A stretch of 52,164 nucleotides of DNA from Dicyema japonicum (lineage: Eukaryota > Animalia > Dicyemida): assembly GCA_011109175.1 (NCBI GenBank), contig RDEW01000039.1:540053-592216 (forward strand). The letters run 5' to 3'. This document shows, piece by piece, positions 4,845 through 48,945 of this stretch. The position numbers and the translations under genes are program-made. A model generated the notes under the pieces. The model ran no database searches and was not told the origin of the DNA. It worked only from the letters and a program-made list of their open reading frames with translations. How positions within the stretch are numbered: position 1 is the stretch's first letter; the number at the start of each line of letters is the position of its first letter.

Positions 4845-5070
4845 ATAATAATAATATCAACAATACCAGAGACCACGATCACACAAACTAACTAATCACG
4901 TGATCCCAGCACGCTCTAGCAGGTCCCTCATCTAGAGCATGCCGCCGGGAGACAGTTTCCTCGGAGGTGGATGTCTAATGGTTCTCTTTGGAGGAGCATT
5001 AGGTGCTCTCTGGGAGTTACCAAAACTTACAGAATCGGTGAACCACATAGCGCCACGCTACTGCTTAAAA
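4845..5070 (-). mobile_element. Short non-autonomous retroelement (GTGGCGCTATGTGG head, LINE-like 3' end, (TTA)n tail)
   Basis: Head shared with elements ending near 10090 and 48930. The 3' motif GCTGGGATCAC...TTAGTTAGTTT is shared with the LINE 3' end at 33250-33280. Confidence 0.6.
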
Positions 5071-6783: not shown

Positions 6784-7282
6784 ATGAGTTTAACTGGTAC
6801 TAATGGTGATGAAAGTAATTGACGATACGGTGACGATAGAAAATTATAAATATAACTTTTCAGAATCTTTAAACAAAATGTTAAATGAATCAAACGAATT
6901 AGCAAAAAATAGTACAAGATTACATGAATCTAATGATGCCATGGAGGAATCATTTAAGGATGAAGAAGTATCATACAAAAAATGCAGTGGGATACTAGAA
7001 AATAATTTTCAAAATATCTACAAAATTCCTGAATATTTAACTAAAGTTGAGAAAATCTCAAAATATATTAAAGAAATTCAAAATACTGTTAAAGATTTAA
7101 AAGCTCGTACAAATGTTTTATTGGCCAACTCTGAAAATAACACTGAAAAAATAAAATTAAGTCAAGAAATGGAAAATAAGAAAATTCAGCTAAAACAAGA
7201 AATGGACAGAGAACATGATATTTCGATTACAATTATTCCCGAAAAACAAGTAAACTTTAACCTTAAAAATAATCAAAAATAA
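6784..7282 (+). CDS. BLOC1S6: BLOC-1 subunit 6 (pallidin; Snapin/Pallidin coiled coil); probable 25-nt intron near the 5' end
   Basis: LHESNDAMEESFKDEEVSYKKCSGIL...EYLTKVEKISKYIKEIQNTVKDLKARTNVL...EMDREHDI is colinear with pallidin (LTQNQ..LEQEISKFKECHSML..HYHAKLVNIRKEM..LKKRALKL..EFEREKQL). ATG 6784 joins the ORF through intron GTAATTGACG...GATAG; ATG 6803 is an alternative start. Confidence 0.7.
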
Positions 7283-9274: not shown

Positions 9275-10165
9275 CATTATTACTATTATAAGCAACAACA
9301 TAGAATCGTGTCGCGTTTACATGATCCGAGATACTAGTCTCTCCGACCATCTCGTATTTGATGCCAGACTCCGCAGACTGCTGAGGTCTTCACTGTTCCT
9401 TAGTGTTCTGTTTACTGGTCTCAAATCTCCATTAAGGACTTCGGGAAGCGTTATACGTGGACGGTCTCGGAACTTTTTACCAGACATTTCCAAGAATTCT
9501 TCCATGATGTTTGTTGGCGTATCTCGCTCCATTCTTATAATATGACCAAATAGTTTCCAGCGCATCCTCATGATTAGGGTGCTCAGAGGTCGAGAGGAGC
9601 ATCTTTTGACCAAATTTTTCACTCCTTACATTTAATCCCAAGAGAGACAGAAATTGATTCCTATGAAATAAGCCGAGCCTTTGTCCGTCGGTTTTTGAGA
9701 ATCCCCAAGTTCCAGAGTTATACGTAAGCATCAGTTTCACGAAAGCCTCATACAATCTGACTCGGAATTTATTTATTTATTTATTAACCCCGGATACACC
9801 GAGAAAGAAGTTAATGTAATTAAGTGTATCCAGTTTCCACTTCTACAGAAACAGAGTCCATCCGGAATCAGCATAAAGGGTAAGACGTCCATTACATGCA
9901 GTTGTGGAAACCCCTCCAGTGGAGTGGGGAAGAGCAAATGATCCTTTTTCATGCCGGCATGGCACTGGGCGTCGCCTAGACAGGTGGATCACATGACGCC
10001 ACTTTATTAGGAGGAGAGAGGAGGAACAGACAAGCAAGCAGAAAATTTAAACCAATTAACAACACAGCACCACATGGCGCCACGCAGCATCACATCTATA
10101 AAATTAATATATCCTGACTCGGAATGATTGGCAGACTGGATGTCTTTGGATCCATCCTTTCAAAA
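9275..10165 (-). mobile_element. 5'-truncated RTE-clade LINE 3' end, interrupted by a short element
   Basis: YEAFVKLMLTYNSGTWG...RWKLFGHIIRM...RPRITLPEVLNGDL; degenerate (TAA)n tail at about 9275-9290. Confidence 0.85.
9769..10113 (-). mobile_element. 345-nt non-autonomous retroelement with pseudoknot core (copy A), (TAAA)n tail
   Basis: 12-nt TSD CTGACTCGGAAT at 9757-9768 and 10114-10125 inside the RTE fragment. Head GCGTGGCGCCATGTGG; core at 9939-10000. Confidence 0.85.
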
Positions 10166-10869: not shown

Positions 10870-11760
10870 TTTTTTTTCAATTCAAATTTATTATCAGAAA
10901 AATGAAGCGAATCATACACCAGTTGCAAAGAGAAAGTGAGCATCATCAAGAACAATAGTAATTCCAAAACGTTCACGGAACCGGATCTCCCAGTCTTGAC
11001 GAGATTGTACTTTTAATCTCTTGGAGAACACTTATAGTAGCATTTCCACCACACCAAAGTCTCAAACGAAATTGAGACGAAGGGCAAATGGTCCCGAAGT
11101 GCAGAATATTTATCCAACTTCCTCTGTTCTGCAGAGTCAGCGGCAGGACATTCTGAGTTTGTAGTCGAAATCATATTTGTCGAGGAAAGAAGTATCAACA
11201 CAGGTTACATCCAACACGATAGAGCGTCCTTATGCGAATGGAAAGATCGTCAAGTCCAACTGGTTCGATGATGGAAGAGAAACCAGCAGCTTCATGACCA
11301 CGTTTAATATATTATTTAGGGTCACGGTCCTTGGAAAATTTTCCAGGGTTTTTCTTGAATGAAAGGGGATGAATTCCTATCGATCAATTATCTTCCCACG
11401 TTGGCATCTGTGAGCTTCACAAATAGTCAAACCAAGGCGATATGAATTGCCAACGTGAAGACTCTCATTGTCTACCAAAGAGATTGGGGAGGCATCCAAC
11501 CAACAATCGCTATCATTCATGCATGCTGAACGAAAGCAAGTCAGGAGTTGTGGTTATAGGATTTTTCTGAATTCCAAATAGATCGGGAGTTTACCACTGC
11601 CTCCAGCCTTGACTGTTGAACCGAACATTGAGAAAATTATCTACTAAGGACTTTAGGTTGAATTGCTGATGTTTATGATGTCCCAGCCCAAGAAGAGCGG
11701 CGAGCATCCTAGAACGAATAAAAAATTTTTAGCATATAGAACGCGATATGTGAATCAAAT
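10870..11760 (-). mobile_element. Decayed CRE-clade non-LTR retrotransposon, 3' part (restriction-like endonuclease)
   Basis: AADSAEQRKLDKYSALRDHLPFVSISFETL and upstream WLDASPI / LEPVGL remnants. Confidence 0.75.
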
Positions 11761-11878
11761 ATCCTCAGTTTCTTGGATAGAGAACGGAACAAAGGGTCCT
11801 TAGACCCTCGTCAGCAGAACGAGCCCCGAGAAAAGTTGTCCAAACGATACCCCAGGGAAGACATTCATTATAATTTAA

Positions 11879-13510
11879 TTACTAGCAACGCAGTTCTCTT
11901 CGCTCAGATCAAGCTAACTCTTCTAAACAGTGACATGCTCAGCTTGTCCCTGACCCAGTATTGATCCCAAACTTTTATTTTAATATTTCGATCTATTCTA
12001 ACTCAAGGACCCACCCACATGTGAACTATCATGTCTTGGAGGTCCTCAACCTTACTTTATATCAAGTTCTCACTTTAGCTTATTTGGAACCATCCATAAA
12101 AATTTCCTTATGCAACGAAATCGATTGCAGACAAATGGGCACGATAATACACTAACTTACTAATTTATAAATAAATTATTAGCAAAATACATGTAATTAT
12201 ACCAACTATCATCCTATACAGCCAACTTCTGAATCTTGATTCACCAAATTCTTTTAATTTTTCTCTGATAAAATTCCTACGTGCCTCAGAACCTCGGGTT
12301 TTCGGTATCTAAAATTTCCTTCCCTCAGAACTTCGGATTTTTGATGTCTTCTGAATTTGTCGCTTCTTCTATTTTCACAAGAAGAAAGATAAGATTCCAT
12401 CTTTAAATTTTGGTTGAAAATTATTCTGACGATAACTATCAGTTAATTGACTAAAAAAGAGTTGTGTTAATGGCATCGGTTTTTTGTATTAAATATCCTC
12501 ATTGTCTCATAGGGAATTCAGTTTAATACACATTGGTGAAATTTTCAAGCTTGAATCCTTAGCAGTTTAAAAACCTTGAAAAACTCTGATATATCAACTG
12601 CTACATGGTGACATCATAATTCGGTAGTTTGAAGAATGAGAGACGAAGATATTAAAATTTAGTCTCTTACTCGGTAGGACTAAGATTTTTAAATTACTAA
12701 CACGAGTGTTTTGAAAATTAGTTCTTAGTAATTTCAATAAGAAATGTTAAAATATACCAGTAATCAATGAACGGAAATGCGTTTTCAATTGAGAGCGGAT
12801 ACCCTTGATTTATAAAAACATTTAGCTTGTTAACTATTCGTGTTAAATAATATGGGGACAAACAAATTATTAGTGATAATAGTACAACAATAACGTATAA
12901 TTAATAAAATGAAGTCAGAAAGGCAGCGCGATAGCGAAAATCACCCGAATGCGCAGAAATCTGACCTCCTCTAAGTCGATTCAGAATAGGAATTAAAGTT
13001 AATAAATATAAAAGAATTCAAAACTTTATTCATTTTAAATTACATATTATTATTATAAGCACGTACGCGATGCCAAGATCAAGACAAAGCATGTGCAACA
13101 CGAAAAGTTAACAATCTAATTAACATAAGGCACTTTCCAATCCTCCTGAGATCTTCATCTAGGATTACCGGCAGTGTTGTCATCGGCCGGCGCGGAAACG
13201 CAGAGCCTCTAAGATAAAATACTCCTCCATTGCTATGTTGGCAAGGGTCCCCATTAAATTACATATTTTTAACTAATAAATAAAATATGTAAGTAAGGTT
13301 AATATAATTATAAAATGTAATAAAAAAATTCACAATATATTGGTCGGTTAGTAAAAAACTCAAAGCCATAAAAAAATTCCTGATCGACCGTTTTCATTTT
13401 TTTGCAACTTCAAAAAAATTTACTTTTCATTTTTAGAAGAATTATTATTTTAATATAAATTCTAAAATTTAATTATATGATGCTCATTCTAAATACTTAA
13501 CTTTCAAGTA
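11879..13510. repeat. Unclassified dispersed repeat, copy 1 (inverted partner at 38770-40072)
   Basis: Reverse-complement blocks such as GTGAACTATCATGTCTTGGAGGT, TTCTTAGTAATTTCAATAAGAAATGTTAAAATATAC and TTCCTGATCGACCGTTTT. Confidence 0.85.
13049..13254 (-). mobile_element. Short RTE 3' end insertion
   Basis: RPMTTLPVILDEDL motif, (TAA)n tail and 13-nt TSD TAAATTACATATT (13036-13048, 13255-13267). The partner repeat has the empty site at about 38985-39000. Confidence 0.85.
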
Positions 13511-13547: not shown

Positions 13548-14355
13548 CTTATTGATTTCGTCTGCCGGGATATGGATACGCTGGAAACTATACTAAAAGT
13601 GATCCCTCAAAGCTTGGAGGACTGGCCCCTGGTAGTAAACTCAGACAAAACAAAAAGAACTAGCATATCCCGTTACACGACGCGAAAAACAATGGAGAAC
13701 ATGCAAGAAAGTTGGATCTCTCTTAGGGGACTCTGAGGACGTTATTCACAGAAAAGTTCTGGCGGTTGCTTCTTCAAAAAATTGTGGGCGATTTGGATGT
13801 GATGAAAGTACATAGGCACTCGCCTTCGAATTAGGTTGTACAACTCTTTTATCGAACCAATTCTACTTTATAATGCGGGGACCTAGGGCTTAACTACCAA
13901 AGAACTGGAAAATCTCACTCTTTCCACAGGAAACAACGGGGACTTCTTCTGGGAGTCTACTGGCCAAAACGGATAACCAACGACGAGCTATATAGAATTA
14001 CTCAAACAACAAAGATTGGGAATAAAGTTACTTGTGTAAAATGGCAGCTCTTTGGACATATCCTAAGAGCTTCGAAACTGGCACCGGCCAATCAGGCCAT
14101 GGAATCATACATTTTTGTATTTAACAAGACAACGTATCGAGGTCGACAAAGAACAACGTTTCCGTCGACGCTCGACAAAGAACTCACTTGCATGAAAACA
14201 GGAAAGGATCTGGATGATCTGAGGGCGGTTGCCAGAAACAGAGGAGGGTGAAAAACGACTCACAGCGCGTGTCCAGAGATGCATGTCAAAAGTAGAATCT
14301 CAAATTAATCAACTTTTCTGGTTCCGCAGACATTGAAATAATAATAATAATAATA
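13548..14355 (+). mobile_element. 5'-truncated RTE-clade LINE
   Basis: LYNSFIEPILLYNAGT...KWQLFGHILR...YRGRQRTTFPSTLDKEL; (TAA)n tail; 14-nt TSD AAAGCACTGCAGTG (13534-13547, 14356-14369). Confidence 0.9.
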
Positions 14356-14582: not shown

Positions 14583-15935
14583 TGTCGCGAGCGCAATGAG
14601 CGACCGAGCGCTACGTGCGACCAGTCAATGTCAATCAATCAAATTAATGTCAATCAATCAAATTTTTTTCAAGATTAAGAATAATTATTTTTAACAGCTA
14701 TTAGTGACTACATTCAACTTCTTAAGTCTTTTGAATGTATTTTCATTACCGATCCATCACTATTTTCCACATTGACAAAATTGTTAGACAATTTTGCAAA
14801 AATAGTAACTGGATCCCCATACGGATGTTCGAACTTTGTTAATTAGAAGGATTCGTCATAATCTTTTGAATGCGAGCCTTTTAAGTAATTAAAAATTGAA
14901 TACAATATCTTCAACATCCAAAACATATTTTGAGCGATGTACTCCCATTTTCCTATTCATTTTCTTATAATATGAGACTCCAAATTAATTTTAGGAAAAT
15001 TAAACTCAAATTCATCTAAAAATATATTTGAATACAAAACCTTTTCTAAATGTTTCTATGTTGTCTCGTTCAGTATTGTTTTTTTACTAAGTATTAATCC
15101 TGGAATCCCACGATATCTTTGGAACGGACTAACTCCTACGAAAAAATATAGGAAACAATTTACCTGTAGATAAGTGAGGCGTTTGATTATACAAAAAACA
15201 GCTTTTCGAATGTATCTCACCAACTCCTTTTCATTATCCAAACTCATCATTTTTGACAAGCTTCTTGTGATCTTCTGGTTAAATATCTCCACAAACCCTT
15301 GACTTTGGGGATTGTTGGGTCTTCCATGTATTTGCATAACTTTGTCATATGACAATTTTTGAATTCTGTACCATTGTCGGATTGTAAATATTCCATAAAA
15401 ATTTCTTCTAGTTTATGGGCCACTTCATTTCCACTTTTATTCACAAGATTTTTCGTAAAAGCACATTTGGAATAAACATCAACAACAGAAAGCAACCAAG
15501 AGAAATGATTATTTTGATCTTTAAATCTATAAAATAACATAAACTTTCAGACCTTTTAAGATCAATCAGATCGACTTGAAATTTCTCATTAGGCGCATCG
15601 GAAACAATATGAGTTGAATCATCATATTGTTTTCGTGGCACTGAGAATTTTTTTTTCCAAAAATATTAAAATTTTTTTGGAAAAAAAATTAATAAAATTT
15701 AAACAATAGAAGTCAGGTAGTTGCCGCCCTCACTGCGTGGATGTTCCCTCTCAAAATTGCGAGCGAAATTCGCTCAAATAGCCAGCGGCGTTCACGGGGA
15801 TCTCTGTTCACGGAGATTTTCTTTCACAAATGTCCGACTTAGAATTGGCAAATATTGTGTGATTTTTGACATATGACATTAATTGACACATGATTTGTTG
15901 CGGGTTGTGCATGGTTGTGCGTTGTGCGCGCGACA
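14583..15935 (-). mobile_element. Ginger2/IS481EU-like DNA transposon with decayed rve (KRBA2/SCAND3-type) integrase
   Basis: NEKFQVDLIDL...WLLSVVDVYSK...LQSDNGTEFKN...HGRPNNPQSQGFVEIFNQ (D,D,E catalytic motifs). Inverted ends TGTCGCG(A/C)GC at 14583 and 15935. Confidence 0.8.
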
Positions 15936-15965
15936 TATTACGAGGTAGACTGGAGGATATTTAAT

Positions 15966-16178
15966 TTTAGAACATTTTCATTAGATCCATCCCCACGTGG
16001 AACATATTCCGAATTAAAAAGTTTCCTTGAACAAAGTGAAAACAACTTTTGAAGACTCTTTATGACACAACGTCGTGAATTTGCCAAATTACGAATTTTC
16101 AAATTGGCCTTTCTTAGGGCAAAAATAATCGAGTCGACGTGGTCATTAACGGATATTAAATTTTCATTTAAAATTCTT
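15966..16178 (-). pseudogene. Inverted ~210-nt duplicate of an internal TEDC1 segment (source about 26573-26785)
   Basis: Near-identical reverse complement, for example ATATCCGTTAATGACCACGTCGACTCGATTATTTTT and TTCCACGTGGGGATGGATCTAATGAAAATG. Confidence 0.93.
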
Positions 16179-19589: not shown

Positions 19590-19715
19590 CTTCCAGTTTT
19601 TTTCAGTTATGGGAACACCTCCAATGAAGTGGGGTAGGGGAACAAATGATCCCTTTTCGACCATCCTGGCACTAGACGTTATCTGAAACAGAAAGATAAC
19701 TTGACTTCACTTCAG
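19590..19715 (-). mobile_element. Decayed copy of the pseudoknot-core short element
   Basis: Aligns to 9910-10005 (GGATCATTTG...CCCCACT(T/C)CA(T/C)TGGAGG); stems eroded by substitutions. Confidence 0.6.
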
Positions 19716-19859: not shown

Positions 19860-22300
19860 TGTTTAATATTCTAATTAAGTTCCCACATGTGCACGAGACT
19901 ATCATCCAGCCATTCACACGATAAGATATATGTGATTGATGATGTATATGAGTATTAAGAATACAATGATAAAGAAGATACAAAATATGAAGAAATTCTT
20001 TATGGCGAATCCTTTCTGAATAGAAATCAATATTTCGGTGAAAAACGTAGAAAATAATTTTAAAAAAATTAGACGATTTGAGTGTAGCCGAACTTGAAAA
20101 AGTTGTTGGATTTCTTAAAAGTGACAAAGTTCGAGATATTATGTGTCTAACAATCTCAAAAGAACGAAACTATCCTGAATGCTATTGTCAACTATTGAGG
20201 ACGTACTCGGAATACGAATCTTCGTCGTTGATATTTATTGCCGGGGACTTTAACGCTAAAGTTGGGATGCGACGCAGTGGAGAGGAATCGTTCATCGGCA
20301 GGCATGGACGGGGTGGAGAAACACCCCGGGAACACTACTGGCCAATTTCTGTCAAGCGAATGATCTTTTCATAGGAAACACTGCCTTTATGCACCCAGCT
20401 CGCCACAGGAGCACATGGACTGGCCATAGAACGAACTCGGAAAACAAAAGTGTCAATATTTATAATCAAATTGATTACATCATTTGTCGGACCAAGGACA
20501 AACACCTACTGAATGATGCCCGTTCTTATGGAGGGTCGATGATAAATAGTGACCATAAAATGGTTATTGGCAAGTTCTCCTTGAAGAAATACTACATTGG
20601 CAAAAGAACCTGAGTCTAAGCAAAACGCTACCACCTTACCATACCCATGTATATATGACTGAGAAGCTCTGGTCTCAGCTGCTGCTGGTGACAAACTACC
20701 AAAAACATATAGAGAACCACCTATATACATTGCCAGCTAATTATGACTATACAAGACCTATGGGATCAGACCAAAAGCATTATTTGCCTTGCCGCAAACA
20801 CCCACCTTGGAGTGAGACGGCAGACAACCGGAAATATGTTCACTTGGCCATCCAGACTCCTTATTACTGGCAAAACAACAACGAGAAATATGGATTACGA
20901 AAAGTTCTTGCATCTGTTGCTTTGGACCGCTTAAAACATCCTGCAGGAAATTACCTATCAGCATGCCATAGTGGATTTCGTGAAGGAAGGTCGACAGCGG
21001 ACATTCTGTGGAGCCACAGGTGGCGGTGTGCAACGGCTCAAAGATACAAAAATGCCACGACCATCCTGGGCATCGACATGTCAAGAGCTTTCGACACCAT
21101 TAGCCGACACAAGCTAATGGTTGTCCTTCATCAATTTGTGGACCAATCATTGCTACGGATAATCAGAGTACTTCTCTCAAGTACTGAACTGTCAGTCCGA
21201 ATTGGGAGAACTCTATCCCGACCATTCAAAACTACAATCGGCACTCCTCAGGGAGACTCCCTCTCCCCCTTACTATTTGTGATATATCTCGAAGCTGCAC
21301 TAAAGGATCTAAGAACTTGCTATGAAGGAAAAATAAACGAAGTCGTATACGCGGATGATGTGGATTTTATATCCGAGGATACAGAAGCTCTCACACATCT
21401 GCTGGAAAATGCACCGGACAAACTGGGGGAATGGTTCCTCATCGTTAACCGGGCCAAAACGGAAATCACGGAAATCAAAAGAATGGACAACATCCTTAAT
21501 GAACGTTGGCGACATGTTAATAAGCTTGGATCCCTACTGGGGGACACAGAAGACATCATCAAAAGGAAAACACTTGCAGGAGTAGCAATGCGAAAACTCA
21601 AAAAGGGATGGCTGAAAGGACTAGATGTCAATCTGCGGATACGCATGTACAATGCATTTGTGAAACCGATACTGACATACAATGCTGGTACTTGGGCCTG
21701 TACAGGTGCGGAATCAATGGCTCTCGATGGGTTCCACAGAAAACAGCTTAGAGTATTATTTGGCATGCAGTGGCCAGCCAGAATCTCGAATACCGGTATT
21801 TACAAAAAATGCAAGAGTAGGCCTCTAAGCCTGGAAATCACTGACGCCCGGTGGAGACTGTTTGGTCACGTACTACGCATGGATCTTGCTGCCCCGGCTA
21901 ATGTGGCGATGGAGGACCATTTCATGTTCGAGGGCAAATGCTTCCGTGGCAGACCAAGGATGACCCTACCTATCATGCTGCACAAAGACCTCCAAAGGAT
22001 GAAGAAATGCCTAAAGACGGGAGACGATCTGGACATGCTGAGATCGACTGCGTGTAACCGTGGAGGATGGAAGAGGCTAACTAATAACATTGTTTCTTGT
22101 ATTGCACATGCTTTGCTATAACTATTATGGCAAGGCGATAAGTGCTGTAATAATAATCCTGAATGCGTAGAGATTGGCACATTTTTATCTCATTGTCATC
22201 TGGCTGAGTGAATCAGTCTTCGAACGATGTTTTTATTAAATGTGATTTACATACACTAAAAATATTAATGACAATGATATGATCGTAAATAAAATTGGCG
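19860..22300 (+). mobile_element. hAT transposase C-terminal remnant split by an RTE insertion
   Basis: Removing the RTE rejoins ...KERNYPEC|VEIGTF...FERCF, resembling the hAT dimerisation domain (YP...ERxFS). Confidence 0.4.
20183..22155 (+). mobile_element. RTE-clade LINE (partial APE endonuclease plus RT), 5'-truncated with an internal deletion
   Basis: IAGDFNAKVG, NQIDYII, SDHKMV (APE); GFREGRSTAD, IDMSRAFDTI, GTPQGDSLSPLLF, YADD, RWRLFGHVLRM, GRPRMTLP (RT). (TAA)n tail; 11-nt TSD ATCCTGAATGC (20172-20182, 22156-22166). Confidence 0.95.
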
Positions 22301-23092: not shown

Positions 23093-24392
23093 TTATTTGC
23101 TCATTTTATTCCATTTATTTTTTGTTAATTTTAAAGAGACCTATAAATAAAATAACTATTACAGTAGCGATTCCTGCCTTTCTTTCACAATCTTGACATT
23201 GTTTTGTCTTTTCTTTAAGTTCTTTAGTTAATTTAACATAATCCATTATATCAGGAACGATATATTCTTCTAATTTATTCGTCATTTTTTCATTGAGTGT
23301 TTCAGCATTATTTTTTTCCTTTCAAAAAGTAATAAAGGCCACCTTTATTGTCTCTGTGATTTCATGTTGCACTTTATTTATGATTTCTTGTTTCTGTGCA
23401 ATTTGTTTCTCTAAATTTTGATATTCGTCTGCAGCTATTTTTAATTTTTTCTAAATTATTCAAAACTTAATTACTCTGTAATTATTGAGATTGTGTAAAG
23501 TTTTTCCACTTAGAACTTTGAGATATAAAAGATCTTGATTTTTTTCATCGATTTTATTTAAAAATTGAGAATTTTCAATTTTTAATTGCAAAAAGTCAAC
23601 TTCTTGTAGAACTTCACCAGTTTCTTCTTTCTAATTTTATACTAATTTTTCGACCTGTCGCAGTTGTATTAAGAGTTTGTTACATTGACTTTTAGCAGAC
23701 GATTTTTTTAATTTTATTTTATCTATTAAAGTAGACTTGATTTTATTTATGATATGAAAACCTTATTTTTTATTACAGAATTGAAATATTTTATTATTTT
23801 TTCTGCTGTTAATTTTTGAATTTTTCCATTAACATTTACTTCATTTGCAGTTTTTTCCAGTGACGTGTTTTCAGCCTCTAATTCCCAGTCGTACTTCGCT
23901 TGCTTTTATGTTTGTCTAAATTAAAGATTAAAAATATGTACGAAATGTTTTGTAGAGTATTTCTAAATTTCTTCCGGTTTTTCTTAACATTGGAAAAAAC
24001 ATTGTCAAATTCTGCCAAAGAAATTTCATATTTTTGTTCAGTAGTCAATCGATTAAGTCTCTCTAATGTACTGCTTCTTGATTTTGAACGCCTTTTTAAG
24101 CTTCCCTTCAAGGACAATGAGTCACTCTTATCTGCGTTTTTATCACTTCCTTCTACTCCTTTCTCTTCATTACTAGTCCAATGAAGTTCTTTATTAGTTA
24201 TTTTTGTTAAATAGCGTTCAAACATGTCTAATTCGGTTTCCAAATATTTATTATTTTCCCTTTAAATTAAAAATTAAATCACTTTAAGGTTTCAATTTCT
24301 TCTTCTAATTTCTCTATAGAGCATTGCTCAACATTTATGTCACTCTCGGTATCTTTGTACGTCGAATTACTCCTCACTTCTGAACTAGACAT
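23093..24392 (-). CDS. CCDC113: Coiled-coil domain-containing protein 113 (CFAP263); 7 micro-introns (22-26 nt)
   Basis: ETELDMFERYL...KRRSKSRS...LTTEQKYEI...KEETGEVLQEVDFLQLKIENSQFLNKIDEKNQDL...YIVPDIMDYVK...ERKAGIA (DUF4201 signature VDFxQLKIEN). Local frame problem at about 23885-23945. Confidence 0.93.
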
Positions 24393-26112: not shown

Positions 26113-27439
26113 ATGGCAAATATTAAAGAAACACTTCAAACTTTTTGCAGAATTCTAAATAATGCAGGCTTTATAAAATTAACACCAGAGGATTTTAGAA
26201 GAGCCAAATTTGGTAACGATGATGAAATTCTGGTGAATTAAATAATTGAATATTCTAGAGAAATTCATTGTGGACTTTGCTTATTCAAATATTTTTATTC
26301 CACCAAAATCGTAGTTTTCCAAAAATTTTATTGGATTTTGAAGAAAAAGGTCTTTTTATAATAAATTTCAGAAAAGTATTTGAAAATGATCAAAATATAT
26401 TTTAATATGAATCAAATAACTACTTTTAATAATTTCACAGTTGAAATTTCAAGTTCCAACTTACTTGTGATGATCGGGGCACTAATGATTAATCAAAAGT
26501 TTATGGAAAATATTTCCCTTTCTTTCATAAATTCTACATTAAGTCTATCATCACAGAAGTTTCAAAATAATGAAGAAATCTTAAATGAAAATTTAATATC
26601 CGTTAATGACCACGTCGACTCGATTATTTTTCCCTAAGGAAGGCCAATTTGAAAATTCGTAATTTGGCAAATTCACGACGTTGTGTCATAAAGAGTCTTC
26701 ATAAGTTGTCTTCACTTTGTTCAAGTAAACTTTTTAATTCGGAATATGTTCCACGTGGGGATGGATCTAATGAAAATGTTTTAAAGCAAAAATCCGCGAA
26801 ATTTGATAAAAATTTTTATTCAGTTATGAATTATTTGTCCGGAATACTTTCAAGGTATAAATTTCACTTATTTAGGAAAATTTGGAAGTTAATAGTCAAA
26901 TTATTGAGGATTTAACTTTCTGGTATACAAAGGGAGAGAAAATATTTTGGAAATGGATGGAAAGTGTCTTGGAATTTTTTATTTCTAACAAAAATGGCAA
27001 CGTTGAGCAAGATAATGATCATATAGAAGAGTTGGCTCTTCAGGTTTCCTCAGAAAAATTGTTGAGTCTTGCTAAGTTTTGTTTAGCTTTTTCTTCCTAC
27101 CAAGTTTTTCTTTATCAGTTATGTAGACTGGACTCGATAAGGTGATTAACGTGAATGTCTCTTCTAAAAAATCTGAATTTTTTGGAATTTCTAATAATTT
27201 TTCTATGCCTTTGTTTTTTGAAACTAATTTGAATTTGCCCTTCAGTAAAATGGTTAAATTTTATTTTATTTCAGAATTTGAATGGAATTGAAGATACTAA
27301 CAGAACAAGTGAAGAATCAAAAAATAAATTTGAGAGGATAGATAAACTTTTTGATGATGCTTTAAATAAGATTGTCAATTCAGCATTCCCAAAATTGAAT
27401 GAATCAGCTTATATAATGACAAAATCATTTCCTACTTAA
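26113..27439 (+). CDS. TEDC1: Tubulin epsilon and delta complex protein 1; about 5 micro-introns
   Basis: LTPEDFRRAKFG...SLWTLL and EKIFWKWMESVL match TEDC1/C14orf80 motifs (PEIFRRAKFD..ALWQLL; FWRWMDTVL). At least two apparent 1-nt frameshifts; the one at about 26630 is restored by the extra G in the duplicate at about 16120. Confidence 0.85.
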
Positions 27440-28200: not shown

Positions 28201-29038
28201 ACACACTTGAGGGAATCAAAATTATTTATTACAAAGAGCCTGCAAGTGTTTTGAGTCGGTTAATAAGGAGACTAATTAATTTAATTTATTATCGCCGGAA
28301 CCACAAGAAAAGGAAGATTTATCGTCTAAATTAAATTCACTCAGATAGACCACCCTCAACGTCTTTTACATCCTATTTATTCTGAAACACGAGCTCTTAT
28401 TCAAACGGGAAATAAACTAAGCAAAGTTAAAAGACGCTCAGTTGATGTCGGTGAAAAGATATCAAAACTAAATAAAGAAAACATGTGTCCTGACCATATA
28501 ATGAGGCCTCCACTTTTTTAATGATAAATGTCTCGTCTGAAAACTGAGAATCCGGGTTTAGTTTGAAACTAATTGGCTGTCGTGGGTTTAGTTTCGTCTG
28601 GTAAAAAAGAACTACATCTATTGAATGTCTAAAGTGAAAGCATTGTAATTCGGTAATTCTTGTTGAATTTCATTTATGTTAACTTTCATTATGATTAAGG
28701 CTGATCCGTGATTTTTTCGACGTCTCCATATGAAAGCAAAATACGGCAAACCCTTGATCCATGGTTGCGGAATAAAGAACTTTCTATACTTTTTCATCAT
28801 TTTGAAGTGGACAATGGAACCACTTAGTTAGTCACAAGACATTTTTTAGTCAACTTTGATAAAATTGTCAACTTTGAGGATACCAATAAAAAAAAGACCT
28901 AAGTAAATAAAACAGAGTATATAAATTCATTTTAGTTAATTTTTAAAATTAAATAAAAATAAAATGAATTATATTATTCAAACAAAATTATTCAGTTTTT
29001 CATTATTTTAGGTTAATTAGTATTCATAATTCATATTA

Positions 29039-30732
29039 ATGTTGAAAATGTATTGTAATTATAATTTCAGTTTAATTTGCGGGGAAGTTGACGGTGAATT
29101 CGAACGTTTATTTGAGAAAATCAACAAAATCAATGCCAAGTCTAATATGATGTATTAAAATTAATTATCATAGCTTCTCATTTGTGTAGGAACTTTTTTA
29201 GCGATTATAAATCGTTAAATACATTTGACACCAGTTTAGGTTTCATTATAACAAAATTCAGTTAATATTGATACGTATATTTTCTGTCCTCAGGAACCAC
29301 CGATTCCCTTCGATTCACCAAAATCAAATACTTTCGAAAATCACAAGTTTTTGATCTTCCTAATGGAGTGGTCCTCGCTTACAAAGAAGAGACGACAAAT
29401 TTTCCTGGAAAAGATATTGATATTCTCATCACTCCAAAATTGCCTTATGGCGTGTTAAATATGTCGAGGATTCTGATGAAGTTAGGGTAATTATTTTAAC
29501 AATTGTAAGAACAATAATTTACATCTTTACGTCGACTTTGGTTGTCGTGATGCTGCCAGAGCTGTCCGCATGTTGAAGCCTAGGTACCATTTCTCATTGA
29601 CTGAGAGATGTTCGTATGAAAGGCCACCTTTTAGGTTAAATATTATTTCATTTTTTCAGAATTGTCAATTCAATGGGAACTGAGTTGCTATCTCATTTTA
29701 TATCATTGACCAAAGTGGGAAATTTTAATTTTAAGGTATCCCATGATTTTAACTGTTTAGTGGTTATACGCCTTATCGATTAAACCGGTCAACCTCTCTA
29801 GTCCAGATGAACTATTTCCCGCTGTCGATTATACTGAGAATCCTTATATTGAACAGTTTAAAAATGACCCAACTGATGACAAAAAGTCAACAATGAAGTC
29901 ACATAACAATCCGCACTTTTTTTCGGAACAACTTGGCATATTCGAAGAATCATCCCAAAGTGCATCTGTGTGTCAATTTAGGTACCGAGATCGAATGTAT
30001 GTTTTGTCCTAGGTCTTCAAACATGGAAAAACATCTCATCATAGACGTATTTGATCGCGTATCTTCAATTATTAACTACTAGTGCTACCTGTCATTAGCT
30101 AAAGGCGGCATTGATCTTTATCACGTTGTAATCTCACCAATTGACCACATACAATCATTCGTTTGTTTGGACTCTGAAACAAAATGATTTCAATAGGTTC
30201 CTTGATTTATCATTGTAGATTTAAATATCTGATCGGCCGATTTTATGCTCAATTTGAACGAGTTCCGTTTATTTTTGAATGTAATTTCCACAATCATCAC
30301 CTCCAATTGCAAGTTTTGCCAGTCTTATTTTAGGTTGTCGCGATTCCAGTCAACTTGGTTGATTTTATTGTCGAGACTTTGCATTCTTATGCTCGTAATC
30401 TTTTTGGTGGTATCCGAGTTGTCTTCTATGGATGACCTCCTTGAAGTTTGGATGATTTCATAAAATTTAGGTTGCCGGTTCTAATCAGCCGTATTTTTAT
30501 GCGGAGATTGGCACCGTAGGAAGGTACTTTATTTCATTGAACAATGTTAATAGCTTTCCTAGTAATTTTGGAAGGTACTCTCTTATGGTTTTTGTAGGGA
30601 AATTGTATGTGATGTACTTAGATGTGGTAATCAGATAAATTGGAGAGTCTGCATTCTTGAGGAGGGCTGAATGAAAAAGGCTAATGTTGAGAGTTTAGAA
30701 AATCGCTCAGACATTTTAGTTTGGTTAAATAA
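29039..30732 (+). CDS. CWF19L1: CWF19-like protein 1 (Drn1), copy 1; about 12 micro-introns; several frameshifts (pseudogene or consensus errors)
   Basis: MLKILICGEVDGEFERLFEKI..., DIDILITP, LKPRYHF...YERPPFR, TENPY, CMFC...EKHLII, LAKGG, HHLQLQV, PYFYAE, FPSNFGRE. Confidence 0.85.
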
Positions 30733-31339
30733 ATTTAATTTCTTTAATGTCGATTATAGGTAAATAAATTATACTCCTTCATTAATAATCACTAATTTTC
30801 TTGCTCTTCATAAAAGACGATACTTTTCAAGGTTCTATTGATTCAGATAGGATTCAAGTTAGAATCATTTGTGCTTCCGGCACTTATTAATAAATTATAA
30901 AAATAAAAAAAAGCTCAAGTATTGTAACGTTTAATTTATTGTAACCTATTGGCATGAGAAATTCAGATATAATCCTAAATTAAAACAAAAAAGACCATTA
31001 GTCAACAATTATCCAGAGGAGTTCTCTTGGACGACATTCCTTCACTCCGACTGAATTTTTTCATTCTGGCTATGACGGTGGTTTTCTGGTTCAATACAAT
31101 TAATTTAACGATGTGCCTATGCCAATGGTCTCAAATGAATAAAATGAACTTTTTTCCAAAATTTATTCCATTTTGAGTAATCATATTCTTCACAACCTTA
31201 AAATCAATATCGCTTGGTATACTGGTCTACTAGGACCAATGATATGTCTCGACTGCTACCTAATTTTGAAAAATTGGTGTAATCGTTTATTAAAAATCTA
31301 AAAACGTTTTTAGGGAAATTTATTTTGTTTTTTTGTAAA

Positions 31340-31900: not shown

Positions 31901-31974
31901 TTTCAAGGTTTGTCATTAATAAACAGGGACCCTAAACAGGAACACCATGGTTCATCGTTGTTTTGATAATTTTT

Positions 31975-33860
31975 TTTAAATTCAAATAATTTATTAAAGA
32001 AAAAAATGAGAAAATGGTTAATATAGCGGCCGCCCTGACGTCGCTATTCCCTATAAGGATGGTGAGCAAGATTCGTTCAAATAACCAGCAGCGCTCATGG
32101 GGTTTTCCTGATCGTGTAGAAACCCGATTTCCTAGACGACTAAGAATTCCAGTGTTGCAAGGGAACCAGACGTCTCAACTGCGTGTAGAACGAACAAAAT
32201 CATTGGGTAGGACCGTGTACTTTGCCAGTTTCAACCTCTCGGTCTTCTCAGCGGTAGAACAAAGGCACTCTGGAGTAGGTTGCAAGAGGCAAATGTGTCG
32301 GTGTAGGTAACGTCCCAGACAAGAGGTTTCCCGATTTTAAAAGGGAAAGTTGTCATCCCATCTGGTCGTTTTCCGTCACGCTTGTAAAAACCGACTGGTT
32401 CGAGCATGGAGGAGTGTCCGGCTGCGTCCAAAGCTGGCCTAATGACTTTGTTTAAGGCCATGTGTCAGGGAAATCTGGCTGCACTATTCCTACAGGAGAA
32501 AGGTTGTAGGCCAATACAGTCGTTCTGGTCTCCACATTGGCACGGATGTGGAACACAGACTTTTAATCCCAGTCGTAATTAGATCCCAATACAAAAGCAT
32601 TCATCATCCACAAAGGTACCCAAAACTCACGGCGATGTTCGCTAGATGAGACTAGCAAACCTTCAAAAAAATTCGGGCATATAGCATCGTCCAGGCCCCG
32701 CTGAAAAACGCTGAACAAGGAAAGCTGATAAGTACAGCTCTAGACCTTACGAGCATAGCCAACGTCCTGGTCAATAGCGAATTCAGGGAGGGAGTGTAGA
32801 ATCCTCTTAACAAGGGTGTTACAGGCCATTAGCGATGAGAGATATGTAGGGAGACAAACGTCTACAGGGTTGCAAATTCCAAGCCCTTTGAGTCTAACTG
32901 GCACCGTGGCTTGCTTCCATAAGTAATCCTCGAACCGGACGTTGAAGATACCATTTCAAACGGAAGATCCCTTTAATTTGTGTGAGTTGGTCACACTGTG
33001 TGAAACAAGGAGCAGTCCTCGGGACCTATGCAAGTCTCTGTACGTTGAGACTGTTTTTCAGGAGGAATAATGAAGTATGCAGGTTAATAGACACAAGCGG
33101 TCGAGTCTCTCCGAGTAACAGTTGTTTTTTACGTATATCTCTCCCCATTGCATTTGTGGTGATTGGGGATCCGAGGAATATAAAATCTTTGTCGGGTGAA
33201 AATTTATTTATTTTATTTATTTGACTCCAAGACCACCAAGAAAAATAGGTCAAAACTAACTAATTAGGTGATCCCAGCCTCCAACAACATCCGAACTCTC
33301 TTCGCCTGGTTTTTTGATGACCCAAACGCATTCCATAAGCGTCTTCTCTTCCTTCTGCATATGAATTCAATCGGCGTGCACTTTTTTATAATCGACCGAA
33401 TTTCCTCTGCATGGGCCACCTTTTCCTTGAATGAGTTTCCCAGTTCCTTGCAAAAGCGTAGGAAACACTGGCCATTCTTCAACGTCGCCTCACCAGAGCC
33501 GAGGCCGCCAATGGAGATGTCAGTGAAGTTCATAATTTTCCGCCTGAGAGAGTTCAAGCGATCAATTCTCGAAGAGGGAATGGCAAATCTCCAGGCGGAG
33601 CAGGCATATTCAATAGCAGGAACAATGACTTGTTGGTAGACCTTGCTGATGCAAGCATCAGGGAAAAAGGGGCTCTTCTTTATGATCGCTTTTAAAATGT
33701 TTCAGAATAAACGGATTAGCGTGGCGGCATGCGGTTCACCTATTGTTGTTGTGGCACCCGGTGCAAGTTTTGCATGAAAAAAAACCGTTTGAACTTCTCC
33801 ACCACTCTACGTCTTTTAGAAGAGTGGCCTACCAATTTTGTCGGGTGTGCAAATGCTTTC
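31975..33860 (-). mobile_element. CRE-clade non-LTR retrotransposon, decayed, with a nested LINE fragment
   Basis: FLGSPI; QATVPVRLKGLGI; ALNKVIRPALDAAGHSSMLEPVG...DGKRPDGMTTFPFKIGKPLVWDVTYTDT. Confidence 0.85.
33203..33690 (-). mobile_element. I/Jockey-like LINE 3' end nested in the CRE element
   Basis: YQQVIVPAIEYACSAW thumb motif; ORF ends ...LLEAGIT*; short 3' UTR and (TAAA)n tail at about 33203-33222. Homologue at 48350-48630. Confidence 0.7.
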
Positions 33861-33930
33861 AGGTAGTAAATTATTATTATCCCAAGAACACCAATAGTTA
33901 ATTACTAAATTCATTAAGTGATCTCAAAGG

Positions 33931-34549: not shown

Positions 34550-36500
34550 TCAGATTTCTCATTTTCTCCTCGTGCGTTTTCTTGGATCCAACGCAACTTC
34601 TCTGTGGCGGGGTGGTTTGAGAAATAGGATTGGAGAGGGGTGATGTATACCCTTCTCTTAAGGCACATCGTGGCTGTGTATTGTGGAGAGTTGCATTGTC
34701 TGCACTGGGTAGCAATCCCTTTCTATTTTGTCGGATAAGTTTTTCAAGTAATGAGGGTATTAGTTTTTCAAGTTTCCAGAGATTACTAATAGTAGTGGCT
34801 GTTATGGTCTGAATGTCGCGGATTCTTTGTTTGTTTGTTCAGGACAGATTGATTCCCCATGACGTACAGGCATAGCTGACAGATGGCTCGATGAATTGTT
34901 TGTACAACAATTTCAAAGCTAGGAAAGGGGTTTTAATGCCACCGAAAATAGTTTTGATTATCCCTAGCTTTCTTGAGCAGCTTCCAGAGATGCCGTCGAC
35001 GTGAGATGAAAAGGACATGTGTGTGTCGAAGGTGGTCTCTCAAGATTTTCAGTTTCTTCGTGAAAGGTATTTTTGTCTTGATAAATATATCCACTGTCAT
35101 TTGTACAACTCGTTTGTCTGAGGAAAATAAAGACGAAGAAGTTTTTCAGTAGATATATCAAGCTGGTTATAATTTAGCCAAATTTGAATCTTGTGAAAGT
35201 ATTCTTGTAGTCTTTCTGATGCCTTTTAAGAGATCTTGATCGCGAAGTTCGATTAATAGGTCATCAGCGTATGATAGGAAGAAATCGTCTATATTATCGG
35301 GTTGTGGTAAATCGGACATGTATAAGTTAAATAAGGCGGGTGAAAAAGGGGAACCTTGTGGGACACCATTGGGTAGTAATCCTGAAACTGATTTGGTCCC
35401 ATCCATGTATACTTGGGCCCTTTACCCAACTGAGGAAGTTAGCAAGCCAAAGTTTTATATTGGGGTTGACGGAGAGGCCAAACAATTTCCGGGTTAGGAT
35501 TTTCCTTGAGACAGACTCGAAGGCCTTTTGTAAATCGATCGAGCAACGACTGTTTTGAGGCGGCGAATTTGTGTTAAAGCCTTCTAGGATAGATTGGTTG
35601 AGGGAAGTTAGGTAGGTAGAAGTTGAATACCCCTTCTGAATCCATGTTGTGAAGGTGAAAAAGGATGGGACGGGGTTATAAACTTAAGAATCAATTTTTC
35701 CAATAATTTTGATAAGGTGCATAGTAAAGAGATTGGTCGAAATGATGCAGGATTGCCCTTAGGCTTCCCAGGCTTAAGGATTGGGCGTATATAGGACAGT
35801 TTCCAGATAGTTGGAATTGTATTTATGTATATTGAATAGTTAAAAATCACTGTGTTTGCATCAATCGCAATAAGTCCAAAATGTTTTAGTAAATACCAGA
35901 TAGAATCAGGCCTCAGATGAGGGAAGAATTCATCCTCTTCAAACCCTCACTGACAACTGAATGTGAAATAAAGTTATTGGTGGTTCTCTTCGGTCTCATA
36001 GAGGATAAAGAAGACCCATCCATGAGGATAAAAAAAGTTTTGTAGGGCTTATACTGGCGTAAATTTCAAAGTTAGACTCTGCTGATTGCCTGCTGTCTTT
36101 AAAAATCCTTTTGGACCAAATTATTTAATTTCTCTCCATGTCTCATCTGAAAACTAAGTATCCAGAAAGATGGGAGTTCATGGGTGTAGTTTTCGTCAAT
36201 TAAAAAAGAGCTACATCTATTGAATGTCTAAAGAGAGCATTGTAATCGGTAATTTTCGTCTGAATTTCATCAATGTAAACTTCCATTATAATGATGCTGA
36301 TCTCGGATTTTCCTTGACGTCTCAATATGAAAGCAAAATACGGCAACACCCTCGATACATGATTGCGGGATAGCGAACTTTCGACTCTTTTTCACCATTT
36401 CAAGTGGACAATAAACTAATTAATTGAGTCAAAAGACATTTTTAGTCAACTTTGATGGAGCTCAAATTTAATGTTTCCTTTGATTTTGCATTCTAGAGTG
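34550..36500 (-). mobile_element. Decayed I/Jockey-like LINE (linker, RT and thumb)
   Basis: IPTIWKLSYIRPILKPGKPKGNPASFRPISLLCTLSKLLEKLIL, QHGFRRG, DLQKAFESV, GVPQGSPFSPALFNLYMSDLP, SYADD, YKQFIEPSVSYA. Confidence 0.88.
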
Positions 36501-36653
36501 ACAAATAAAAAACCTAATTAAATAAAACAGACTATATTAATTCATTTTAGTTAATTTTTAAAAATGAATAAAAAATAAATAGATTATATTATTTAAACAA
36601 AATTATTGATTTTTTCATTATTTTAGGTTAATTAGTATTCATAATTCATATTA

Positions 36654-48193: not shown

Positions 48194-48349
48194 TAAATTT
48201 AATTTCTCTTATATCGATTATAGGTAAATAAATTATACTTCTTCAAAAATAATCACTGAATTCCTTTTTCTTCACAAAAAACGATAGATCTTTTCAAAGT
48301 TCTTTTGATTCATATTGGATTTAAGTTCGATGTATTTGTGGATCCCCGA

Positions 48350-48630
48350 GAAAGAAAGACAAAAGAAATTTCAACTAGTTAGGTGATCCCAGTTCCCGTA
48401 GCCAAACGTGACGTCAACGCCTGTGCGTCTCCATTGTTCTCACTGCCGAACGGAAATGTTTTCTTGATCCTTACAGAGGAAACTGATTGGGGATGGAAAT
48501 TTTCCTGCCAACCGATTTTCTTTTGCATGAAACAGTGAGAGGCTGAATATGTGTCCATCTTCCTCGCAAATGCGGAGAAATCCGGAACTACATCTACGAG
48601 TTGTAGATTCCGTCAGCAGGGGAGGTATTT
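48350..48630 (-). mobile_element. I/Jockey-like LINE 3' end fragment
   Basis: FLRICEEDGHIF...HAKENR...PISFLC parallels FLRFCKELGNSF...HAEEIR...PIEFIC at 33264-33480; same CTGGGATCACCTAA 3' motif. Confidence 0.65.
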
Positions 48631-48694
48631 TGTTCTATATTATAGGTCCCAGCATACGTATTGTTTTCCTTTGCAGTTAGTCGTATGAATACAA

Positions 48695-48945
48695 CTTAAA
48701 TTAAATTTATTCCAAAGACCAAGGGTAACCAAACTAACTAACTCCTTGATCCGGACTCGTTCCAGCGTTTCAGAACTTGTCTCCAGGTAATCACAATTCC
48801 CCGGGGAAAAAATAGTGGATCCTCTTGTTGCTGGCCAAACATTGGGCGTCACCTCAGTAAGGTGGATCCAATGACGCCATCAAAGGGAGGGAAAATAAGT
48901 ATTGATATACTAGCCACATAGCACCACATGTAGCCGCCTTATTTA
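48695..48945 (-). mobile_element. Short non-autonomous retroelement with pseudoknot core (copy B)
   Basis: Head GTGGTGCTATGTGG; core at 48817-48878; LINE-like 3' end GGATCAAGGAGTTAGTTAGTTTGG...GGTCTTTGGAATAAA. Confidence 0.75.

What the first reader, a model, noticed from the sequence alone, without database searches (positions are those of the whole stretch)
9939..10000. Covarying pseudoknot with HDV-ribozyme-like topology inside short retroelements
Seen: in element-sense orientation, copy A (10000->9939) reads GGCGUC aug UGAUCC ACCU gucu AGGC GACGCC cag UGCC augcc GGCA ugaaaaa GGAUCA. Copy B (48878->48817) reads GGCGUC auu GGAUCC ACCU uacug AGGU GACGCC caa UGUU uggccagc AACA aga GGAUCC. Both are 62 nt with strand order P1-P2-P3-P3'-P1'-P4-P4'-P2'. 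Differences are compensatory (P2 U-A vs G-C; P4 UGCC/GGCA vs UGUU/AACA) while loops and flanks diverge. Established: this strand order is that of HDV-like ribozymes, which process R2, RTE and L1Tc transcripts. However, the HDV L3 UCC, the P1.1 GG and the catalytic C in J4/2 are absent, and the motif is 60-110 nt inside the element rather than at its 5' end. Inference: a conserved structured RNA, either a non-canonical ribozyme or a SINE core domain for RT recruitment or nuclease resistance, which I cannot assign to a known family.
Basis: partly seen in the sequence, partly recalled or inferred. Interest (0 to 1): 0.78.

Follow-up and report, generated by a model that had tools for sequence, protein, structure and literature searches.

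The report
Disarmed ribozyme-like knot heading retroelements
This is a real, conserved RNA knot at the front of several abundant jumping-element families; it has the outline of the self-cutting hepatitis-delta ribozyme but lacks its cutting core, so it likely protects or marks the element's RNA instead of cutting it.

Summary
The motif is real and more widespread than reported. The window holds five copies (A, B, plus C 19708-19646, D 5054-4978, E 33723-33788); a model trained on A-C finds E and D as its next two hits. Across the five, 83 of 95 stem cells pair and 7 of 21 pairs change on both sides. Contigs from public runs show A and B are high-copy families, also present in a second organism. 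HDV-ribozyme tests fail: L3 varies from 6 to 15 nt, P1.1 is absent, no J4/2 C is fixed, and elements do not start at G1. Best reading (0.5): a non-cleaving 5' module of a LINE and its two-part derivatives, likely promoter plus protective pseudoknot, paralleling trypanosome Pr77/SIDER2. Earlier scan notes describe ribozyme-headed RTE SINEs on other DNA, not this motif.

The parts
9938..10000 (-). Pseudoknot copy A: P1 10000-9995/9973-9968, P2 9992-9986/9944-9938, P3 9985-9983/9976-9974, P4 9965-9961/9955-9951, A-rich J4/2 9950-9945
   Evidence: family variants
10065..10089 (-). Partial duplicate of the module (leader, P1, J1/2 and P2 5' strands only) forming element A's 5' head; family 5' end at about 10085-10089
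   Evidence: weak hit, E 1.4; weak hit, E 1.6; loose ends at 10085 in X1 (36), X5 (7), X6 (2)
9769..10089 (-). Element A, about 320 nt, non-coding, high-copy, ending in (TAAA)n
   Evidence: summed depth 0.4-4.6 million against 358 on the unique flank in X1 (order of magnitude only)
9783..9835 (-). A's LINE-derived 3' tail (last codons plus stop, and a stem-loop)
10114..10125 (-). Upstream copy of A's 12-bp target-site duplication, inside an RTE reading frame
9757..9768 (-). Downstream copy of A's 12-bp target-site duplication
48816..48878 (-). Pseudoknot copy B
48696..48935 (-). Element B: partial-duplicate head, linker, knot, LINE-type tail
19646..19708 (-). Pseudoknot copy C (old, decayed A-like copy)
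   Evidence: 72% identity to A over 110 nt, E 2e-8
4978..5054 (-). Pseudoknot copy D (15-nt L3, different P4, compensated P2), 6 nt from the 5' end of element D (about 5060-4850)
   Evidence: leave-out model, E 0.028
33723..33788 (+). Pseudoknot copy E, within a tail-less 119-nt piece (33717-33835) inverted against a LINE 3' fragment
   Evidence: leave-out model, E 1.4e-4
33205..33705 (-). 3' fragment of the partner LINE (145-aa ORF at 33264-33701, stem-loop, (AAAT)n tail)
33837..33847 (-). Upstream 11-bp target-site duplication enclosing inverted E plus the LINE 3' fragment
   Evidence: word occurs twice in the window; null 0.017
33188..33198 (-). Downstream 11-bp target-site duplication, right after the LINE tail
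48340..48600 (-). Second 3' fragment of the same LINE lineage (same terminal codons)
   Evidence: tblastn E 1e-4; 19 of 20 nt shared at the tail

Best explanation
The 62-82-nt motif is a covarying four-helix RNA pseudoknot at the 5' end of short non-coding retroelements that share their 3' end with a non-RTE LINE; it is likely that LINE's own 5' module, likely descended from an HDV-like ribozyme that lost its catalytic core, and it is predicted to protect or mark the RNA 5' end without cutting it. Shown: homology of five copies, covariation, high copy number, LINE-type tails, and absence of the HDV core. Inferred step 1: the module is the LINE's 5' end, and A, B, D and the E-LINE RNA are two-part (5' end + 3' end) internal-deletion derivatives moved by the LINE protein. 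Inferred step 2: the first ~20 nt act at the DNA level as an internal promoter, so the RNA starts about 6 nt before P1 and no cleavage is needed; these nucleotides persist as a head in A and B even after their pairing partners were lost. Inferred step 3: P1 and P2 cross, the A-rich J4/2 would pack against P1, and the compact fold would slow 5' decay or be bound by the LINE protein, so copies with an intact fold re-amplify while L3, P1.1 and the catalytic C drift.
For: Leave-out covariance model (A, B, C) ranks E (E 1.4e-4) and D (E 0.028) 4th and 5th of 22 hits at E<=10; a D+E sequence HMM finds A at E 0.0015. 83 of 95 stem cells pair; 7 of 21 pairs show more than one Watson-Crick type; the true 5'/3' strand matching ranks 1 of 120 permutations. 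Covariation score 0.35, reached by 0 of 500 shuffles and above all six slid controls. Common family variants keep pairs through sense-strand G.U: 9972 33%, 48849 19%, 9951 G-C/G.U, 48839 C-G/U.G. Tails of D (24 of 26 nt), B and A align to the LINE end at 33264 and fold as hairpins. E plus the LINE 3' fragment lie inside one 11-bp duplication, in the layout described for twin-priming 5' inversions (PMC2912911 passages). D, E and the A-family head share a leader upstream of G1. No tRNA, no B box, and T4-T6 runs inside 4 of 4 elements checked argue against Pol III. Precedents, passages read: Pr77 is both promoter and ribozyme, SIDER2 has two tandem copies, and some copies lost activity (PMC3383444, PMC4035085, PMC4748587); an HDV fold is proposed to protect R2 template RNA through structure, not necessarily activity (PMC11331408).
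Against: No full-length LINE was available, so the LINE 5' link rests on one insertion (null 0.017). HDV ancestry rests on topology, position and ACC/GGU P3 strands only; Rfam finds nothing. Five related copies are few, and the tool warns that relatedness inflates covariation. G.U versus A.C cells are only 8 versus 5. Nested folding gives P2 a probability of 0.06 in A, 0.00 in B and 0.01 in E, with competing folds. In A and B the knot lies 60-90 nt inside, which weakens a pure 5'-end shield. In PMC11331408 a C-to-A active-site change greatly reduced template function, so a core-less fold may protect poorly. Several contigs stop matching at 10001-10003 and 48874-48881, close to G1 (table 8). 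No RNA data were obtained.
Confidence: 0.5

Rival explanations
1. The pseudoknot is unrelated to HDV ribozymes: an independently evolved H-type pseudoknot with two inserted hairpins that serves as a LINE-protein binding site or translation element, its topology matching HDV by convergence.
For: None of the HDV core nucleotides is conserved. L3 behaves like a plain hairpin loop of 6-15 nt. No Rfam hit. The P3 base pair next to P2 is A.A in 98% of contigs laid on B.
Against: Exact HDV strand order with a 3-bp P3 directly continuous with P2 and P1'. G1 is paired in 5 of 5 copies. The location at a LINE-type 5' end is where HDV-like ribozymes are known for six LINE clades (PMC5786205 section 22).
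Confidence: 0.25
2. It is an active self-cleaving ribozyme with a non-canonical core, at least in some families or in the autonomous LINE.
For: 61% of depth laid on A has C at 9951 (4 of 4 depth in X6), giving CGAA if the outer P4 pair opens. B and D have a C followed by purines before P2'. Natural HDV-like ribozymes tolerate a 1-bp P1.1, a 6-bp P1 and altered L3 spacing (PMC3185411, PMC3774820 passages). Some contigs stop matching near G1.
Against: That C pairs with the G opposite and is an A-U pair in the B family, so it behaves as P4's outer pair. The 39% U subfamily and a UAAAAA subfamily amplified without it. Cleavage at G1 would remove the conserved leader of D/E and the head of A/B, yet both are retained. 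L3 lacks the C-G whose G was needed in R2 ribozymes.
Confidence: 0.15
3. The conservation is at the DNA level (promoter or protein-binding inverted repeats, or a Pol III A-box-like head), and the RNA pseudoknot does not form.
For: The first ~20 nt are kept without partners in the A/B heads. B's P2 arms are a palindrome. The leader resembles a tRNA A-box region (recalled consensus, no call). A structure-only score is not above shuffles.
Against: Both-sided changes occur in all four helices, including crossing ones that cannot coexist as a DNA cruciform. G.U-type variants favour the sense RNA strand. No B box, and T runs are present.
Confidence: 0.1

Closest known systems
Pr77 hallmark / L1TcRz of trypanosomatid L1Tc/ingi LINEs and their derivatives NARTc, RIME, SIDER1/2 (PMC3185411, PMC3383444, PMC4035085, PMC4748587; passages read)
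   Same: HDV-topology module of similar size at the 5' end of a LINE and of short derivatives that share the LINE's 3' end; tandem duplication of the module (SIDER2 versus A/B); GGU as P3' directly followed by P1' (from the printed L1Tc primer); a promoter role for the same bases is shown there and inferred here.
   Different: L1TcRz cleaves at +1 and keeps L3, P1.1 and the catalytic C. Here elements begin 6 nt or more before G1, the core is gone in families that amplified strongly while the stems still covary, it is the upstream duplicate that has decayed, and the host is likely an animal. No sequence homology was shown.
HDV-like ribozymes of R2, R4, RTE, Baggins/LOA retrotransposons and CPEB3 (PMC3774820, PMC6326823, PMC6765202; passages read)
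   Same: Strand order P1-P2-P3-P3'-P1'-P4-P4'-P2', 6-bp P1 starting with a paired G, 3-bp P3, purine-rich J4/2.
   Different: No U-C-C..C-G loop, no P1.1, no fixed catalytic C, J4/2 of 5-9 nt against CRRA, and the element end is not at G1.
Bipartite non-autonomous LINEs (RTE, Ingi, Vingi, R2 SIDEs) and SINE bodies derived from LINE 5' UTRs (Kojima 2018, PMC5786205; outline and sections 15 and 22 read)
   Same: Short ORF-less elements made of a LINE 5' part and a LINE 3' tail, flanked by target-site duplications.
   Different: Kojima suggests that SINEs avoid the ribozyme-bearing LINE 5' end because cleavage would cut off the head; here the ribozyme-like fold is kept downstream of a head, apparently disarmed. 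There is no tRNA head, and the partner is not RTE.

Membership tests
HDV-like ribozyme | Strand order P1-P2-P3-P3'-P1'-P4-P4'-P2' with covarying helices | tested here: met
   Five copies; 83 of 95 cells pair; 7 of 21 pairs change on both sides
HDV-like ribozyme | G1 paired with a pyrimidine at the base of a 6-7 bp P1 | tested here: met
   G-C in 5 of 5 copies, 6 bp; criterion from PMC6326823 and PMC3774820 passages
HDV-like ribozyme | Conserved 7-8 nt L3 with U...C-G reverse wobble | tested here: not met
   L3 lengths 6, 7, 7, 15 and 9 nt; none has C-G; first U in 4 of 5. A canonical-loop scan gave 3 window hits, none at these copies
HDV-like ribozyme | P1.1 (L3 C-C with G-G after P1', 1-2 bp) | tested here: not met
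   J1/4 reads CA, CA, UA, CAGA and CG; no consistent partner in L3
HDV-like ribozyme | Invariant catalytic C in a CRRA J4/2 | tested here: not met
   J4/2 is GAAAAA (A, E), CAAGA (B), GAAAAG (C), 9 nt with C (D). The 61% C at 9951 covaries as P4's outer pair; C-less subfamilies are abundant
HDV-like ribozyme | Element 5' end at the cleavage site (G1) | tested here: not met
   D and E share 6 nt upstream of G1; A-family ends cluster at 10085. Some contigs stop matching at 10001-10003, which is not decisive
HDV-like ribozyme | Mg2+-dependent self-cleavage | not testable with these tools
   Needs an in vitro assay
Bipartite non-autonomous LINE | 3' end shared with a LINE of the same genome | tested here: met
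   D versus LINE 33264, 24 of 26 nt (E 4e-5); A and B align by MAFFT; hairpin tails
Bipartite non-autonomous LINE | 5' end shared with that LINE | tested here: inconclusive
   One insertion joins inverted E to the LINE 3' fragment within an 11-bp duplication; no full-length LINE was seen
Bipartite non-autonomous LINE | No ORF, simple-repeat tail, target-site duplication, many copies | tested here: met
   No ORF of 100 aa or more in A, B or D. 12-bp duplication for A; none convincing for B, C or D. High depth
tRNA-derived SINE (SINE2) | tRNA-like head with A and B boxes and no internal Pol III terminator | tested here: not met
   ARAGORN 0; no Rfam tRNA hit; no B-box match and T4-T6 runs in 4 of 4 elements (box consensus recalled)
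RTE-dependent element | Tail matching the RTE 3' end | tested here: not met
   Tails match LINEs 33264/48400; that ORF hits no RTE copy of the window in tblastn. A short likeness to the RTE end at 45490 exists by eye only
Ingi/Vingi clade (partner LINE) | RT phylogeny and domain layout | not tested
   Only recalled motif likeness in the related RT fragment 35946-34545. Searches gave no clade name
Described SINE core domains (CORE, V, Deu, Meta, Ceph) | Sequence match to the domain consensus | not testable with these tools
   No Repbase or SINEBase on hand. The short Ceph/CORE words quoted in PMC5786205 section 15 are not evident in A (by eye)

The most novel reading that the evidence does not exclude
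This LINE lineage carries a new class of catalytic or nuclease-blocking RNA built on the HDV scaffold but with an entirely different core (free-length L3, no P1.1, no fixed C): either a ribozyme that cuts about 6 nt upstream of P1 and so defines the shared leader, or the first natural exonuclease-resistant pseudoknot derived from an HDV ribozyme, kept by selection across tens of thousands of copies in two organisms.
Probability: 0.2. Interest if true: 0.85.

Novelty: new variant of a known kind. Interest (0 to 1): 0.53.

Why it matters
HDV-like ribozymes at retrotransposon 5' ends are thought to do more than cut (protect the RNA, bind protein, aid translation), but activity and fold have been separated mainly in engineered R2 templates. 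A natural, highly amplified family in which the four helices still covary while the catalytic core has drifted would make the non-catalytic role directly testable. It would show one way a headed element can keep a LINE's ribozyme-bearing 5' end without decapitating itself, and it could offer a compact non-cleaving 5' module for RNA-templated gene insertion. It also shows that descriptor searches that require the HDV core miss such modules.

Tried and rejected
No whole genome is held for this window, so copies could not be collected genome-wide; family information comes from contig tables that were cut (60 and 87 variant rows not shown). No RNA holder was listed, which says nothing about expression. 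Rfam: whole window 2 hits at E 3.3-3.7, A region 1 hit at E 8, D region 0; all chance. Pattern scans: viral contigs 0 for two patterns; metagenome contigs 2 and genome contigs 2 matches, all four in GC-rich prokaryotic sequence that reads as coding (ORFs listed for L001 and L002 only) and with no P2 partner seen by eye, rejected as chance. A structure-only descriptor did not separate real copies from shuffles. The opposite strand also has an HDV-like strand order, but tails and G.U variants point to the element-sense strand. C9951 as the catalytic C was first entertained (note), then rejected once it proved to be P4's outer pair. RTE as partner was rejected; A merely sits inside an RTE fragment. 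Twister, hammerhead and pistol were considered from recalled consensus and have no Rfam support. Copy C's rows were off by one base and are not used; one search has the right register. The alignment misplaces B's P2' by one column, so its counts are low. P4 was counted for A, B and E only (C has a deletion, D a different hairpin). Clade assignment of the partner LINE and host identification by protein search failed; P0122 is a spurious hit. Searches of earlier findings by place, sequence and taxon words returned nothing. Nine literature searches showed no description of this motif; subscription journals, Repbase and SINEBase were not searchable, and no supplements were read (those of PMC5786205 and PMC6736024 could bear on novelty).

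Full report
Observation. Both copies are at the stated coordinates and read as described. A core pattern matches only these two places, with 0 matches in 100 shuffles (post hoc). Taken alone the fold is unremarkable: z-scores are -0.36 and -1.25, and a structure-only descriptor scores A and B no higher than the best hits in 20 shuffled windows. The case therefore rests on homology and covariation.

More copies. BLAST found a decayed A-like copy C. Aligning whole elements showed that the 'heads' of two other elements, D (5060->, minus) and E (33717->, plus), are themselves complete, divergent copies of the knot. In a leave-out test, a covariance model built from A, B and C ranks E (E 1.4e-4) and D (E 0.028) right after the training copies, ahead of 17 hits at E 0.41 or worse. 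A sequence HMM from D and E finds A at E 0.0015 but not B or C. A five-copy model finds no sixth full copy in the window.

Covariation. In hand register, 75 Watson-Crick and 8 G.U cells of 95 pair, with 5 A.C and 7 other mismatches; P4 was counted for A, B and E only. Seven of 21 pairs show more than one Watson-Crick type: two in P1, three in P2, one in P3 and one in P4. Matching each copy's 5' strands with its own 3' strands ranks first of 120 permutations. On the MAFFT alignment, where B's P2' is one column off, the covariation score is 0.35; 0 of 500 shuffles reach it and the six slid controls give 0.045-0.29. Relatedness can inflate this. The chance of finding each P2 partner in its zone is 0.008 (A), 0.001 (B), 0.024 (D) and 0.11 (E).

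Family data. Four public contig sets were laid on A and on B. Summed depth on A is about four orders of magnitude above the unique flank (0.4-4.6 million against 358 in X1). Depth is no copy count, but the family is clearly very abundant. Thirteen contigs of a second organism (X6) also match each element. A's P3 mismatch is private (U in 99.5%). Frequent variants keep pairs through sense-strand G.U (9972 33%, 48849 19%, 9951, 48839). Two do not: the P3 pair next to P2 is A.A in 98% of contigs on B, and 48877 (6%) breaks a P1 pair unless compensated. On B the P1-P3 core is covered about ten times deeper than P4, and loose ends show further subfamilies with the same P4 but different J4/2 lengths. 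The variant tables were truncated.

HDV membership. The defining core, taken from PMC6326823 and PMC3774820 (passages), is G1-Y, the U/C/G of L3, a C-C/G-G P1.1 and a CRRA J4/2 with the catalytic C. Topology and G1 are met. L3 is 6, 7, 7, 15 and 9 nt with no C-G. J1/4 offers no consistent P1.1. A C at 9951 is the majority in the A family (61%), but it faces G9965, alternates as G-C or G.U, and is A-U in the B family, so it reads as P4's outer pair. B and D keep a C in J4/2 at different spacings; E and abundant subfamilies have none. The ends are not at G1: D and E share six bases upstream of it, and A-family ends cluster at 10085. Against this, several contigs stop matching at 10001-10003 and 48874-48881, which could be other heads or cleavage-defined copies. 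Rfam finds nothing. It is not filed as an HDV-like ribozyme.

Element anatomy. A is about 320 nt, ends in (TAAA)n and has a 12-bp target-site duplication inside an RTE fragment whose frame reads across the insertion. Its head, like B's, is a partial duplicate of the module's leader, P1 and P2 5' strands without their partners, which explains the 'internal' position. The tails of A, B and D align with the last codons, stop and stem-loop of a LINE at 33264-33701 and a second one near 48400, not with the window's RTEs. E has no tail and lies inverted against the 33264 LINE fragment, the two enclosed by one 11-bp duplication (null 0.017). This is the layout described for twin-priming 5' inversions (PMC2912911 passages), and it implies that module and LINE 3' end were on one RNA. 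There is no tRNA or B box, and T4-T6 runs occur in 4 of 4 elements checked. They are best read as bipartite LINE derivatives in the sense of Kojima 2018 (PMC5786205, sections 15 and 22). The LINE's clade was not established; a related RT fragment at 35946-34545 has Ingi/Vingi-like motifs by recall only.

Host. No genome is held. The best hits of the window's RTE protein, and the one credible hit of the LINE fragment, are proteins annotated in Octopus sinensis on scaffolds under 1 Mb. Dicyema japonicum lives in that octopus and has a 67.5-Mb genome with 49% repeats and many LINE copies (PMC6736024 passages). A dicyemid host is a plausible inference, not shown; a host-gene search found nothing.

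Mechanism. I favour (0.5) a disarmed HDV-type 5' module. The first ~20 bases would work as an internal promoter, as Pr77 does in L1Tc (PMC3383444, PMC4748587 passages), making cleavage unnecessary. The fold would be kept because it stabilises the RNA or is bound by the LINE protein. The authors of PMC11331408 propose such structure-based protection for R2 templates, though their C-to-A active-site mutant lost much of its function, and nested folding predicts competing structures for A, B and E. Rivals are a convergent pseudoknot (0.25), an active non-canonical ribozyme (0.15) and DNA-level conservation (0.1).

Novelty. Each ingredient has precedent: ribozyme-headed LINEs, bipartite derivatives, tandem Pr77 in SIDER2, and inactive copies (PMC4035085 passages). 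What appears new is continued covariation of all four helices, with loss of the whole core, in strongly amplified families. Nine literature searches showed no description; PMC6765202, PMC13708176, PMC6543705 and PMC3185411 were read as passages only, and no supplements were read. Collection scans gave no relatives. Earlier scan notes on other genomes describe ribozyme-headed RTE SINEs and enlarged-L3 variants; they are unchecked leads, and none matches this sequence. Verdict: real feature, new variant of a known kind, interest 0.53.

Noticed in passing
window 10090-10113: 24 AT-rich bases at single-copy depth lie between element A's 5' end and its upstream target-site duplication: a 5' addition or template switch.
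   Followed up: partly
window 9740-10140 and 48670-48960: Family variants are strand-biased: on the + strand G>A outnumbers C>T (31 versus 16 places for A and 19 versus 13 for B in X1), that is, C-to-U on the element's sense strand.
   Followed up: no
window 9783-9835, 48700-48760, 4858-4915, 33218-33285: The 3' tails fold into stem-loops whose arms differ in sequence between families yet keep pairing, as expected for a LINE recognition signal.
   Followed up: partly
window 33870-33925 (-) and 40700-40815 (+): Further LINE-type tails: one abuts the E insertion; the other resembles A's extreme 3' end, is locally duplicated, and follows a different retroelement fragment.
   Followed up: no
window 28528-30873, 36138-38462, 46035-48340: Three copies of a 2.3-kb repeat at 86-89% identity; the one ORF tested had no Pfam match.
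   Followed up: no
window 50876-51521: Tandem array with a 67-nt period.
   Followed up: no
window 11000-11900 (-), 31950-33100 (-), 40200-40500 (+): Decayed fragments that look like restriction-like-endonuclease (CRE-type) retroelements by recalled motifs.
   Followed up: no
window 15852-16175, 26577-26785, 41014-41124, 45647-45729: Young short repeats (96-99% identical pairs), possibly MITE ends.
   Followed up: no
window 20051-22150 (+), 43096-45545 (+), 9317-9770 (-), 13874-14251 (+): RT-LINE copies that look like RTE (label from recalled motifs; Pfam gives RVT_1 for the two long ORFs), apparently 5'-truncated, with no pseudoknot module found near them.
   Followed up: partly
window 6794-7282 (+) and 23878-24261 (-): Host-gene-like ORFs: a weak Snapin/Pallidin match (E 2.7e-4, below the Pfam cut-off) and a coiled-coil piece resembling CCDC113 by recall only (one search found no hit).
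   Followed up: partly
protein P0121: An Octopus sinensis-annotated protein starts with 42 residues 50% identical to the partner LINE's ORF and continues as an RTE-like sequence, suggesting the same LINE lineage in that assembly.
   Followed up: partly
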